From Octopus vulgaris (taxonomy: Eukaryota), in NCBI GenBank assembly GCA_951406725.2, contig OX597816.1:30752001-30816000 (forward strand): a DNA stretch of 64,000 nt, read 5' to 3'. Positions 45,468 through 58,766 of this stretch are shown here, in pieces (the first letter of the stretch is position 1; every line of letters starts with the position of its first letter). Under the pieces are notes generated by a model. It was not told the DNA's origin and ran no database searches. It saw nothing but the letters and a program-made list of their open reading frames with translations. The position numbers and the translations under genes were made by a program.

Positions 45468-45812
45468 GAAATATTAAGAGACTTAGTTATTTTAATATTT
45501 TTAATATTTCTATTATTGAAAACAAGTGGATGTATTCCACCGAAACTAGGTAAATAAAACCATCGAACAGAGATTGTCGGAAGCGACACCTACTGGCTGG
45601 CTACGCTGCATTGAAAAGGGGCAATACCCCGAAACGCGTCTGTAGCTGCCGGTCAAGTAGTGTGGAGCGACTGACCTCCCTTGTTCGAAGGTTATATGGA
45701 TACAGTTTGTGTATCAAATAGCTAACTTAAGGCGATGGCCTCATGGAGCTAATAAGCGGACAGCTTTTTTCTTATTTTTATAAGAATGCCATATTAGTAT
45801 GGCGATAACTAT
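45468..45812 (+). mobile_element. HHR-bearing short element (family P2) between (TA)n tracts
   Basis: 45601-45810 aligns with 58548-58766; terminal hairpin GCCATA(TTAG)TATGGC. Confidence 0.8.
45605..45646 (+). ncRNA. Minimal type I hammerhead ribozyme, U3-A8 core
   Basis: GCTGCA-TTGAAAA-GGGG(CAATA)CCCC-GAA-ACGCGT-C-TGTAGC; GUC site, predicted cut after 45640. Confidence 0.8.
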
Positions 45813-46364
45813 TATATATATATATATATATATATAACAGACGCATATATATATAACACATGTCCTTCTCGAGCCATATAAGGCCAGTTTCCAGGATCCG
45901 CTGGCTTATATATTCTCTCTCTATTAGACGGGATGCCACTCCATCGTAGGAATACTCCTTTTAGCCAGGTGAGTGGGCTAGAGCAAAGTGAAAGGAAGTG
46001 TTTTGCTCAGAAACACAGTGCACCTCTTGGTCCAAGAATTGGAACCTCAATGTTACGATCATGAATGTTACTTCTCAAAATACAAAATACTAAGCGACGT
46101 GCCTACACATACGCACACATGGTCACACGAACATACACACACATACACAAACGCGTGCATGTCCACACACACACGCACATGCACAAACGCACACATATAC
46201 ATTAACAAGGATAGTACTGACTGTGACTTTGAAGTTATAGATGGCGTAGACTCTATAGTACTGACGAAGAATATTAATGCTAAGGAATGTTAAATGTGTA
46301 GAATGTACCGAAGTAATCCCTCTGTTTATTGTAAATTTCTTTTGCTTTGTATAATTATAATAAC

Positions 46365-46590
46365 TCGACTTCAGGTGGCTAAAAGTTTGAATCCTTAGCA
46401 CGCCAGACAAAGTATTTGTCTGCCTTTGTCTGCCTTTACGTTCTGAGTACAAATTCCACCGGGTCAACTTAGCCTTTCATAATTTCTGTGTCGATTACAT
46501 AAGCACCAATTGAGCAACGTGATTATTAACTAACGCCACTGCACACTAAGAATCTCATTCTTTATGCTTGTAGTAGAATGGATTTTCGAA
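46365..46590 (+). mobile_element. SINE family B, diverged
   Basis: TTAGCACGCC...TTTACGTTCTGAGTACAAATTCCACC...GCCTTTCAT. Confidence 0.7.
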
Positions 46591-46699
46591 TTAAACACAC
46601 ACACACACATATACACACACACATATATACTGACACACACACACATATATACTGACACACACACACATATATACTGACACACACACATATATAATTTAT

Positions 46700-47090
46700 A
46701 CTTTTCTACATCTATGAATCACATATGGAATGCAAGATAAAATACGGGATACATATTACACAAAATTATGGATTAGCGCGGAGGATTTACCAAGGATGAA
46801 TATACAGACTTCAGAATATTTTCATACAAAAGTGCACCCACGCAAATCAAAGCTAGCAAATTTTATTTTAATTTATATTTAAAGGAAAAACTCCCTTTTA
46901 CTATATTTTTTCTTTAAAAAAATATAGCATTCGATTAATTATACAAATTTCTACCTCTCCATCTCTGATGAGTGGAAGTATTGCTCATTAATGTTTATCA
47001 ATCTTGGATTCCATTATAAAGACAATAGTTTTGAGAAACGATCGTAAGATGCGTTAAATACCTAATCTTAAACTGTCATACTTTATATAT
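46700..47090 (+). mobile_element. PLE 3' end: decayed ORF terminus plus HHR at 46960-47051
   Basis: NHIW and KCTH(A)N remnants resemble PLE GIY-YIG C-termini; CATCT-CTGATGA-(63 nt)-GAA-ACGATCGT-A-AGATG. Confidence 0.7.
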
Positions 47091-47109
47091 TTATATATAC
47101 TATATATAT

Positions 47110-47300
47110 GTAAATGTAAAAAAATACAAACTGGGACAAGAACGTGAAACGTTTAGAAGACGATACGAAAAACACGGACGGGACATTCCAAGCCTTCAAT
47201 CTTCAGTCAAGAACCGGATCATCTTCGCAATTTCGGCTGATTAATCTTGAGATTGTTCGGATCTGGCCAGCCCCAAAGGAAAATCTAAGCCAATCGCATT
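47110..47300 (-). mobile_element. Dispersed repeat family Q between (TA)n tracts
   Basis: Similar to 11755-11975 and ~16800-16940. Confidence 0.6.
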
Positions 47301-47682
47301 TATATATATATATATATATATTTTTTTTTAATACAATGTTATTTTGCATATATATATATATATATATATATATATATATATATCTTTGTGAAAAGGTTTT
47401 AGATTTTGATTTTCATGCTATTATTTCACAATCTATTATATATAATTGCTCGTATTAAATGTCTAAATGCTTAATGAAGTTAATACTTTGACACTTATAT
47501 CAAATTATACACAAATGGCACACACTTCAAATTCAGTATATCATATTCTCATAGAATATATTTAATTATATATATATATATATATATATATTTTATATAT
47601 ATATACATGTATATATATATATATATATATATATATATATATATATATATATACACACATATATATATATATATATATGACA

Positions 47683-47726
47683 CGCAAAGGATGACATGCA
47701 AATTCGTGAAGCGATCCATATTTTTT
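47683..47726 (+). pseudogene. U6: U6 snRNA 3' fragment (retrocopy)
   Basis: CGCAAAGGATGACATGCAAATTCGTGAAGCGATCCATATTTTTT vs U6 CGCAAGGATGACACGCAAATTCGTGAAGCGTTCCATATTTT. Confidence 0.92.
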
Positions 47727-55953: not shown

Positions 55954-56070
55954 TTTTCTTTGGCAGCGCTGACGGACATTGGCAGCAGAAACGGCTGTTA
56001 GAAAAGATAAATTTTGTATTGAAAAAATAATAATCGATGATAGTCAATTTGTTTGTTGATCAAGAATTTT
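55954..56070 (+). repeat. Degenerate HHR-like tail; partial direct copy at 54841-54930
   Basis: TTTTCT-TTGGCAG-CGCTG...CAGCA-GAA-ACGGCTGT-T-AGAAAA; GACATTGGCAGCAGAAACGGCTGTTAGAAAAGATAAAT and GATAGTCAATTTGTTTGTTGATCAAGAATTTT occur at both sites. Confidence 0.6.
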
Positions 56071-56752
56071 CTCTATTTTCTAATTAATTTAGATACAATT
56101 CCTTGAGATGTTTGTCTTGCCTTAACATTTGTTGTCCTTTTTAACAATTATATTTAGATACATACATACATACATACATACATACATATATATATATATA
56201 TATATATATATATATATATATATATATATATATGTGTGTGTGTGTGTGTGTGTGTGTGTTTGTGTGTATATATATATATATATATATATATATATATATG
56301 TATGTATATGTGTGTGTTCGTCTATCTATCTATCTATCTATCTATCCATCCATCTATCCATCATTCTCCCCTCCCTCCCACTTTCCCTCCCAGAACAATC
56401 CTCAGACACTACCCACATGACAACGAATTATAAATGGAACGAGAGAAAAAGCGAGAAGGAAGTATACTCCGTTTTAATTTGTTTTATTAAGTGGACAGTG
56501 TATCTTGAATTTGTGCTGCGATACCAGACATCGTATACATCAATGTTTGGCCAGTTCTCAGTCTATGAAACTAATACTAGCATATAAAAACATATATTTT
56601 GTTTATTGCATAACAATTTTCTCCTAGCAGATGGAGTACATTTTTCGCGTTGAATTACCATCACAGACAGTACAGTATGCACGCACACACACACCCACTC
56701 ACATACATGCATACATATGCATACATACATACACACACACACAATATATATA

Positions 56753-57158
56753 TACTCTTTTACTCTTTTACTTGTTTCAGTCATTTGACGCGGCCATGCT
56801 GGAGCACCGCCTTTAGTCGAGCAAATCGAACCCGGGACTTATTCTTTGTAAGCCCAGTACTTATTCTATCGGTCTCTTTTGCCGAACCGCTAAGTGACGG
56901 GGACGTAAACACACCACCATCGGTTGTCAAGCAATGCTAGGGAGACAAACACAGACAAACAAACACACACACATATATATATATTTACATATATACGACA
57001 GGCTTCTTTCAGTTTCCGCCTACCAAATCTACTCACAAGGCATTGGTCGGCCCGGGGCTATAGCAGAAGACACTTACCCAAGATGCCACGCAGTGGGACT
57101 GACCTGGAACCATGTGGTTGGTAAGCAAGCTACTAACCACACAGCCACTCCTGCGCCT
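56753..57158 (-). mobile_element. tRNA-derived SINE family C, full length
   Basis: Head AGGCGCAGGAGTGGCTGTGTGG, central CTTGGGTAAGTGTCTT, internal microsatellite, tail GGCGGTGCTCCAGCATGGCC...(GTAAAAGA)n. Confidence 0.9.
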
Positions 57159-57535
57159 ATATATATATATATATATATATATATATATATATATATATAT
57201 ATGCACTGCAATAGAGACAGAAGCAGGGTCAGTTCCAAGTAAGAATCTGTATATTTTACTTAAGATGAATGTACTATATACGAAATCCTTTATAGTCCGG
57301 TATTTATAAAGAGAAAGCATTGCGTATATATGTATGTCGGTGAACAGACTAACACTACAGTATTATGGTTTTCTTACAGTATATCCAAGTCAAACAAGAC
57401 TACACACACACATATATAGATGTATGTATGTATGTATATATATATATATATATATATATATATATATATATATATATATATATATATACCTAGCTACTTC
57501 TATATTATTTCTACTCGCTATTACGGTCTATCTCT

Positions 57536-57706
57536 CTATCCGCTCAGTCGAAGTCGACTCTCGGTTACCTCATAGATCAGTGTCTTCCAGTCAGTTTTAT
57601 CCTGGGCCGCTCCTTTCAGATTGGCTATGTCCATTCCGGTATCATTCTTGATTGTGTCAAGCCAGCGGGTTCTTGGTCGGCCTCTTCCTCTCTTGCCACT
57701 GACCAT
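57536..57706 (-). mobile_element. RTE-clade LINE 3' end fragment
   Basis: MVSGKRGRGRPRTRWLDTIKNDTGMDIANLKGAAQDKTDWKTLIYEVTESRLRLSG*, the typical RTE ORF C-terminus (GRPxxRWxD...W). Confidence 0.88.
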
Positions 57707-58369
57707 ATGTGTGTAAGCGTTTACGAATGTTTTTGTTTACCTCAGTTTCATAATAATTCCGTATGCTAACATTGATTGAATAAGTCAGTAATCGTCTGTC
57801 ATTTGATAGAGGCAAATACATAAGTAACACATCTTACATTCATTTGCAGTCAACAACATCACTACGACCCTGAGAGAATGTACGATACGAACTGTTTTTA
57901 CAACGGCATGTTCAAATCGATCAGGATTGGCAATTGCAATACATGAATTTCAAAGTTGTATCCTAGTATATATTGATCTTGAAAGACAGCGGAAAGTTTG
58001 CCTGCCTAAACTCAACATCAGAGCTGCTTCTTATTTCAGAGATAAAATGTATGCATTAAATTGAAATTATTTTAATGCATTAAACATAAGTTACCATTTA
58101 TATGAAAAAATTAATATTTATAACTTTGGATTGTGTAGACATTGCGCCTTAATATGCCTGTAATTATATACAGAAATATAAGAATATATGAGTTTGCATG
58201 TGTCTGTGTGTGGGTCATATTTTTATGTGAATATATATATATATACATACACAAACATACATTAGTCTATCTCTATCTGTCTATCTGTATCTCTCTCTCT
58301 ACATATATATATCAAGGTGTTTATTATATTTTATTTATATCTTTTACGTTTACACTTTTATTCTTTTAT

Positions 58370-58490
58370 TGTTTTACCATTTTTCAGTCATTTAACTGTG
58401 GCCATGCTGGAGCACTGCCTTTCAGTCGAAGAAATTGTCCCCTTAGACTTTTTGTTTGTAAGCCTGCTGTTTATGTTATCAGTCACCTCT
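58370..58490 (-). mobile_element. SINE family C, 3' fragment
   Basis: TTTCAGTCATTTAACTGTGGCCATGCTGGAGCAC. Confidence 0.75.
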
Positions 58491-58527
58491 AAGTCTCTCT
58501 AAAGGAGATTACGGCAGCGTTACTGGA

Positions 58528-58766
58528 AATTAATAATTATCGCCATACTACGCTGCATTGATAAAGGGCAAATACCCTGAAACATGTCTGCAGCTGTCTG
58601 ACTGGCAGGATGAAGCGGCTGACGTCCCCTGTTCGAAGGTTTATAATGGACGCAGGTTGTGTGTCAAATAGCTAGCTTGAGGCGGTGGCCTCTTGGAGCT
58701 AATCAGCGACAGCTTTAGTCTTATATTTATAAGACTGCCATATAAGTATGGCGATAACTATTAATT
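58528..58766 (+). mobile_element. Family P2 HHR element with a 22-bp inverted copy of its 3' end at the 5' end
   Basis: AATTAATAATTATCGCCATACT (58528-58549) vs AGTATGGCGATAACTATTAATT (58745-58766); aligns with 45601-45810. Confidence 0.8.
58552..58594 (+). ncRNA. Minimal type I hammerhead ribozyme, U3-A8 core
   Basis: GCTGCA-TTGATAA-AGGG(CAAATA)CCCT-GAA-ACATGT-C-TGCAGC; predicted cut after 58588. Confidence 0.82.

What the first reader, a model, noticed from the sequence alone, without database searches (positions are those of the whole stretch)
45605..58594. Covarying non-canonical (U3-A8) hammerhead ribozymes in one repeat family
Seen: two copies (45605-45646, 58552-58594) differ mostly in structure-preserving ways. 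Helix II changes G-C to A-U (GGGG/CCCC vs AGGG/CCCT), the helix III palindrome changes ACGCGT to ACATGT, helix I has G.U vs G-C, and free position 7 varies. Both have UUGANAA instead of CUGANGA. Established: C3-G8 is an exchangeable tertiary Watson-Crick pair, and PLE HHRs with tiny palindromic helix III cleave as dimers. Inference: a selected ribozyme family that canonical CUGANGA searches would miss.
Basis: partly seen in the sequence, partly recalled or inferred. Interest (0 to 1): 0.85.

Follow-up and report, generated by a model that had tools for sequence, protein, structure and literature searches.

The report
Jumping hammerhead repeats swapping core pair
The two motifs are copies of an abundant ~360-base repeat with a hammerhead-ribozyme fold, likely spread by Penelope-type retrotransposon enzymes; its U3-A8 core is already described elsewhere, but related subfamilies that were copied many times carry mismatched cores, which would allow a test of whether self-cleavage is needed for jumping.

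Summary
Observation confirmed base for base. The copies belong to subfamilies A (362 nt) and B (365 nt), 83% alike, of a non-coding repeat with thousands of genomic copies. Insertions are head-to-tail arrays with inverted, 5'-truncated arms in (TA)n tracts; in 21 of 21 two-armed insertions scored, the arms end at two different fixed sites, the Penelope 'tail' signature. So it is a non-LTR retrozyme / non-autonomous Penelope-like element. Covariation is real: 93% of cells paired, 104 double changes, 0/500 shuffles; helix III changes among about ten self-complementary words. U3-A8 pattern hits outnumber canonical ones (4,928 vs 2,166). But U3-A8 is not new: about 1,300 were reported in Schistosoma PLEs in 2014. 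The less expected result goes against a strict 3-8 pair: related lineages were copied many times with U3·G8 (54 of the first 100 of 1,297 hits) and C3·A8 (15 of 39 in one lineage; a 99.5%-identical subfamily in another), likely stepping stones between U-A and C-G. Cleavage, expression and the partner enzyme are not shown; both window copies are solo, and copy 2 is truncated. New variant of a known kind, interest 0.45.

The parts
45465..45477 (-). Copy 1: 13-nt inverted arm ending at terminal site 2, against the left (TA)n tract
45477..45813 (+). Copy 1: nearly full monomer of subfamily A (362-nt unit), ending at terminal site 1 before (TA)n
45605..45646 (+). Type I hammerhead motif, U3-A8 core (U3 45611, A8 45616), helix II 45618-45630, palindrome ACGCGT 45634-45639, predicted cut after 45640
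45582..45668 (+). Predicted long extension of helix I beyond an internal loop, enclosing the hammerhead
   Evidence: fold prediction only
58489..58550 (-). Copy 2: inverted 5'-truncated arm running through the tail; it stops short of site 2
58548..58762 (+). Copy 2: 5'-truncated monomer of subfamily B (365-nt unit), ending at site 1 before (TA)n
58552..58594 (+). Type I hammerhead motif, U3-A8 core (U3 58558), helix II AGGG/CCCT, palindrome ACATGT 58582-58587, predicted cut after 58588; lacks the upstream strand of the helix I extension

Best explanation
The two motifs are solo copies of a ~360-nt non-coding tandem repeat with a type I hammerhead fold, which is likely a non-LTR retrozyme copied by the reverse transcriptase-endonuclease of an autonomous Penelope-like element. 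Shown: unit, arrays, inverted arms, (TA)n flanks, two fixed ends 62-63 nt apart, covarying helices. Inferred: a tandem array is transcribed; neighbouring hammerheads pair through the palindromic helix III and would cut after C17, perhaps with help from the PLE protein, releasing a highly paired monomer that may circularise. The PLE enzyme would nick (TA)n DNA and start reverse transcription at the two internal sites, one per strand, giving arrays and two outward-facing arms. Selection on master copies keeps the fold and the palindrome. The 3-8 pair is held only as pyrimidine-purine: it has moved between U-A and C-G through U·G and C·A states that stayed mobile, so cleavage is probably tolerant of these or not needed in every round.
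For: Unit and arrays: 40 of 40 scored candidates 100% identical over 253 nt, tandem period 362; subfamily B 98-100%. End rule: 21 of 21 loci in which both outer ends were detected have one arm at site 1 and one at site 2 (a cruder first count gave 19 of 21). Tandem, inverted and tail features are PLE hallmarks (PMC8557442); the tail is the stretch between two RT start sites (PMC11167929). Covariation: 30 representatives chosen by me, 93.1% cells paired against 74.0 shuffled, 104 double changes against 32. On a tree of 108 copies (12 of 120 dropped), changes to paired helix I/II positions stay paired 19 of 24 times on internal branches and 28 of 67 on terminal ones, Fisher p=0.002. Helix III: four 6-nt palindromes and six strict 8-nt ones; 82 of the first 100 hits strict, 16 G·U-compatible, 2 neither (counted by eye). 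Folding: monomer z -6.9 (A) and -8.3 (B); in a natural two-unit stretch helix II has probability 0.97 and the inter-unit helix III about 0.5. A young PLE with a 1,312-codon open frame has the same (TA)n target, inverted arms and two ends 56-59 nt apart.
Against: No cleavage or expression data. No DNA homology between the unit and either autonomous PLE family examined, so the driver is a candidate only. The tail is longer than the usual 30-40 bp. In a pairwise scan of a type III hammerhead only the G3-C8 swap rescued; other changes in that motif gave low activity (PMC9901934). In the anole PLE, hammerhead mutants did not affect insertion in vitro and no RNA-seq reads ended at the cut site. Shuffle control ignores relatedness. 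Five of 24 internal-branch changes broke a pair, and deep nodes of the tree are weakly supported.
Confidence: 0.78

Rival explanations
1. The element is PLE-mobilised, but what is selected is the folded or dimerising RNA shape (for protein binding or pairing two templates), not cleavage; the hammerhead is slow or vestigial.
For: U3·G8 and C3·A8 subfamilies amplified with normal tandem and inverted insertions; some also carry U·U or C·A at the first pair of helix II. Hammerhead mutants still insert in vitro. Naiad PLEs thrive without canonical hammerheads.
Against: In all rows fetched by a 5'-half-only pattern the 3' core GAAA...GTC was intact (20 new loci). Lineages appear to return to C3-G8 more than once. 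Relaxing positions 3 and 8 adds only about 320 excess hits over the four pyrimidine-purine states (against 20, 24, 28, 29; rough, with double counts).
Confidence: 0.15
2. The repeat is the detached pseudo-LTR of a still unseen autonomous PLE that bears the same hammerhead, not a self-standing non-autonomous unit.
For: PLE copies are mostly 5'-truncated; only two PLE families were examined out of thousands of candidate matches.
Against: Arrays of 3-5 perfectly head-to-tail 362-nt units; no PLE reading frame in line with a unit in the 90 loci scanned (one unrelated PLE lay near a family C motif); the unit has no conserved frame between A and B.
Confidence: 0.05
3. A tRNA-type SINE or satellite moved by LINE enzymes or unequal crossover, with a chance hammerhead look-alike.
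For: A B-box-like GTTCGAA lies 50 nt after the motif (sequence; B-box consensus recalled).
Against: Covariation, palindrome turnover, inverted arms and the two-site end rule; no tRNA-like Rfam hit.
Confidence: 0.02

Closest known systems
Metazoan non-LTR retrozymes (Cervera and de la Pena 2020, PMC7229834; mussel repeats of 350-390 bp)
   Same: 170-400-nt tandem unit, type I hammerhead, GC at or below 50%, highly paired, no coding capacity, co-exists with PLEs.
   Different: Described families have canonical cores in the passages read; here U3-A8 dominates and U·G and C·A subfamilies exist. Circular RNA not shown here. Inverted arms, tail and (TA)n target give direct PLE insertion marks.
Schistosoma mansoni PLE minimal hammerheads with U3-A8 (Cervera and de la Pena 2014, PMC4209133)
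   Same: Same 3-8 covariation, PLE context, dimer logic, over a thousand copies.
   Different: Those lack helix III, have a long helix II and are mostly single motifs; here helix II is 4 bp, helix III a 6-8-nt palindrome, and the host is a short tandem unit.
Non-autonomous PLE derivatives (Craig et al. 2021, PMC8557442; Li et al. 2026 preprint 10.64898/2026.07.22.740005)
   Same: Head-to-tail insertions, inverted 5'-truncated arm, tail at one end, microsatellite target; retrozymes argued to be PLE derivatives.
   Different: No sequence homology to an autonomous partner found here; tail 62-63 nt (about 45 in the D/E lineage).
Poseidon of Anolis carolinensis (Frangieh et al. 2024, PMC11167929)
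   Same: Two internal RT start sites bounding the tail; AT-rich target.
   Different: Autonomous, canonical C3-G8 core; cleavage there needed protein and was dispensable for insertion in vitro.

Membership tests
Type I hammerhead ribozyme | Core N3-UGA-N7-N8-A9, GAAA, U16.1-H17 with a 3-8 pair | tested here: met
   U3-A8 form in both window copies; accepted natural variant
Type I hammerhead ribozyme | Helices I, II and III supported by covariation | tested here: met
   helix III only as an inter-copy palindrome
Type I hammerhead ribozyme | Match to an Rfam hammerhead model | tested here: inconclusive
   no hit for copy 1 nor for a canonical-core relative
Type I hammerhead ribozyme | Self-cleavage after H17 | not testable with these tools
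   needs a bench assay
Non-LTR retrozyme | Tandem repeats of 170-400 nt with a hammerhead in each unit | tested here: met
   periods 362, 365, 358-360
Non-LTR retrozyme | Non-coding, low GC, highly self-paired | tested here: met
   GC 0.41-0.50, z -4.1 to -8.3 for 4 of 4 units
Non-LTR retrozyme | Expressed as linear and circular RNA | tested here: inconclusive
   no holder on record as RNA; contigs only
Non-LTR retrozyme | Long target-site duplications when present | not tested
   (TA)n flanks hide them
Non-autonomous Penelope-like element | Partial tandems and inverted 5'-truncated arm | tested here: met
Non-autonomous Penelope-like element | Tail at one end only | tested here: met
   21 of 21; longer than the usual 30-40 bp
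Non-autonomous Penelope-like element | 3' homology to an autonomous PLE | tested here: inconclusive
   none with the two families examined; other PLE families not examined

The most novel reading that the evidence does not exclude
This superfamily is a natural record of a ribozyme crossing the fitness valley of its catalytic-core tertiary pair several times: U3-A8 and C3-G8 lineages are linked by U3·G8 and C3·A8 subfamilies that themselves jumped tens to hundreds of times. In the dimeric, PLE-protein-bound state any pyrimidine-purine pair at 3-8 would support enough cleavage, or cleavage is optional for jumping, which would settle what hammerheads do in Penelope-type elements.
Probability: 0.45. 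Interest if true: 0.7.

Novelty: new variant of a known kind. Interest (0 to 1): 0.45.

Why it matters
The role of hammerheads in endonuclease-bearing PLEs is called unclear in PMC8557442. Here young, near-identical subfamilies with U-A, C-G, U·G and C·A cores share one scaffold and one insertion signature, so cleavage rate can be set against copy number without engineering. It also shows that canonical descriptors undercount hammerheads in this genome by more than half, and adds insertion-structure evidence that animal retrozymes are moved by PLE enzymes.

Tried and rejected
Rfam on the whole window returned microsatellite-driven miRNA matches in the 150 rows shown of 302; local scans gave no hammerhead. 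Search for the autonomous partner: two PLE families (1,312-codon frame; 767-929-codon frames) show no DNA homology to the units; the second has a single end and fits worse. A 13-nt antisense match between unit A and the second PLE's end was dropped because B and D/E lack it. Pfam gave nothing for the window's endonuclease remnant and sub-threshold RVT_1 and GIY-YIG for the 604-aa frame. Sequencing runs: no RNA holder listed; four guessed-RNA contig sets cover most of the unit but show no ends or circular joints, so no evidence either way. Script 61 failed to map the first PLE's ends; script 83 failed. Earlier scan findings: none. No covariance model was built and R-scape was not available. Lunse et al. 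2017 was not held. Literature searches found no report of this family or of amplified U3·G8 or C3·A8 cores; the library lacks most subscription papers and Repbase/Dfam, and I read no supplements (those of PMC4209133, PMC7229834, PMC8557442 may list such families).
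Full report
Observation. Both motifs are in the sequence as described, and a relaxed scan of the window finds only these two. The window lies in a 2.8-Gb genome; size and microsatellite load recall an octopus, which is my guess from memory and was not tested.

The repeat. Copy 1 has at least 40 copies identical over 253 nt among the 40 candidates scored of 1,198. They sit in head-to-tail arrays of period 362 nt, often with a second arm on the other strand, the two 5'-truncated ends meeting at the junction. 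Copy 2 belongs to a 365-nt subfamily, 83-84% like the first and 98-100% within itself. Insertions end in (TA)n at one of two sites 62-63 nt apart. Among loci L001-L170 less 16 overlapping ones, 21 had both outer ends detectable, and in all 21 one arm ended at each site. Copy 1 obeys this with a 13-nt inverted arm; copy 2 has a 62-nt inverted arm and starts 4 nt before helix I. Partial tandems, an inverted truncated copy and a tail at one end are PLE hallmarks (PMC8557442, passages), and the tail is the stretch between two reverse-transcription starts (PMC11167929, parts 1-2 of 4). Both window copies are solo, 12.9 kb apart, and copy 2's local fold does not form the hammerhead, so these two are probably inactive offspring of tandem masters.

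Counts. With the same 3' half, matches against reversed-pattern controls are U3-A8 4,928/347, C3-G8 2,166/398, U3·G8 435/233 and C3·A8 568/178. With both positions free: 11,570/4,307, which leaves roughly 320 excess hits for the other twelve states, some of them double counts. These totals mix families: 32 of the first 100 U3-A8 hits are an unrelated T-rich family. Of 186 distinct motif-bearing stretches that I had fetched, 173 link into one superfamily by BLAST; these loci were partly hand-picked for diversity and for mismatched cores.

Covariation. For 30 representatives, 93.1% of cells pair (74.0 in shuffles), with 104 double changes (32), 0 of 500 shuffles as high, and slid controls at 24-49% (this control ignores relatedness). 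On a tree of 120 copies, less 12 dropped for indels or truncation, changes at paired helix I/II positions stay paired in 19 of 24 cases on internal branches and 28 of 67 on terminal ones (p=0.002). The A/B lineage shows steps: helix II G-C, G·U, A-U, G-C; helix III CTAG, CATG, CGCG. Among the first 100 hits, 78 have a palindromic helix III and 14 of the 22 others look like CpG decay (counted by eye). A further 1,297 copies (0 control) have an 8-nt helix III; of the first 100, 82 are strict palindromes of six kinds, 16 self-pair with G·U, 2 do not (by eye). Turnover among self-complementary words is what selection for inter-copy pairing predicts. Folding agrees: in a natural two-unit stretch the swapped dimer and the two monomers have equal weight (helix III between units about 0.5), and co-folding gives the double hammerhead. 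Dimer cleavage of such motifs is described in PMC4209133 (parts 1-2 of 4), PMC7229834 (passages and section 14) and a review (PMC6765202, passages).

The 3-8 pair. U3-A8 is known: natural covariation in PMC3088659 (section 8) and about 1,300 hits in S. mansoni PLEs. What I did not find in print is the following. In the D/E lineage a 5'-half pattern gave 486 hits (0 control); the first 100 are 46 U·G, 39 C-G, 11 U-A, 4 C·A (by eye). In one search the first 100 are 54 U·G, 39 U-A, 7 C-G. In lineage H all 39 hits are 18 U-A, 15 C·A, 6 U·G, none C-G, too many for decay after insertion. The U·G (11 loci, 94% median identity) and C·A (4 loci, 99.5%) subfamilies have tandem and inverted insertions with the same two ends. 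In a 22-copy tree the C·A copies form a clade (95) with 4 private sites, joined with C-G copies (97) inside U-A relatives; monophyly of C-G has 59 there and 99 in the larger tree. U-A to C·A to C-G is the shortest path, but C-G first with a later G8 loss in a master is not excluded. U·G and protonated C·A wobbles being near-isosteric is recalled knowledge. Against activity: a pairwise scan of a type III hammerhead found only G3-C8 rescued (PMC9901934, passages); the anole PLE's hammerhead needed protein and was dispensable for insertion in vitro.

Driver. Two autonomous PLE families have young intact frames. One (1,312 codons; top matches 99-100% identical) targets (TA)n, makes inverted arms and ends at two sites 56-59 nt apart (16 ends); the other ends at one site (18 of 20). 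Neither shares DNA with the unit. The first is the better candidate, by inference only.

Comparison and verdict. It works like, and by every feature testable here is, a non-LTR retrozyme; a 2026 preprint (part 1 of 5 and passages) argues these are PLE derivatives. Expression was not shown. The amplified mismatch subfamilies are the new element and make an open question testable. New variant of a known kind; interest 0.45.

Noticed in passing
window 59938-60393 (+): Decayed GIY-YIG endonuclease end of a PLE; relatives elsewhere have intact 767-929-codon RT-EN frames.
   Followed up: partly
window 45299-45362 (-), 2319-2542 (+), 34112-34280 (+); L241: 3' ends of that PLE family; one shares the (TA)n tract with copy 1. 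Its pseudo-LTR holds a hammerhead-like motif that parses as C3 with A6U, an extra A, helix II GAGC/GCTC and palindrome ACGT.
   Followed up: partly
L201-L205 (e.g. L203 2442-6380): Young PLE with a 1,312-codon frame, a long Asn-rich insert, and a 3' hammerhead-like motif with an apparent A9C change.
   Followed up: partly
L062, L064, L065, L068, L073, L079-L081, L085-L086, L088-L090: Second, unrelated U3-A8 family with a T/A-rich helix II opening on a U·U mismatch and a CCGG palindrome; about a third of U3-A8 hits.
   Followed up: no
L211 3028-3325 (-); one search list: Subfamilies with U·U or C·A at the first pair of helix II, combined with U·G, U-A or C-G cores and 8-nt palindromes.
   Followed up: no
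G000:C1:447309 and many others: Abundant repeat ending in GAAACCGGTC without a clear helix II; unexplained.
   Followed up: no
L152: 1.38-kb tandem amplification holding a U·G unit together with a LINE reverse-transcriptase fragment.
   Followed up: no
window 13419-13640 / 35583-35804 and 20803-22765: Other interspersed repeats (91% inverted pair; a cluster of diverged direct repeats).
   Followed up: no
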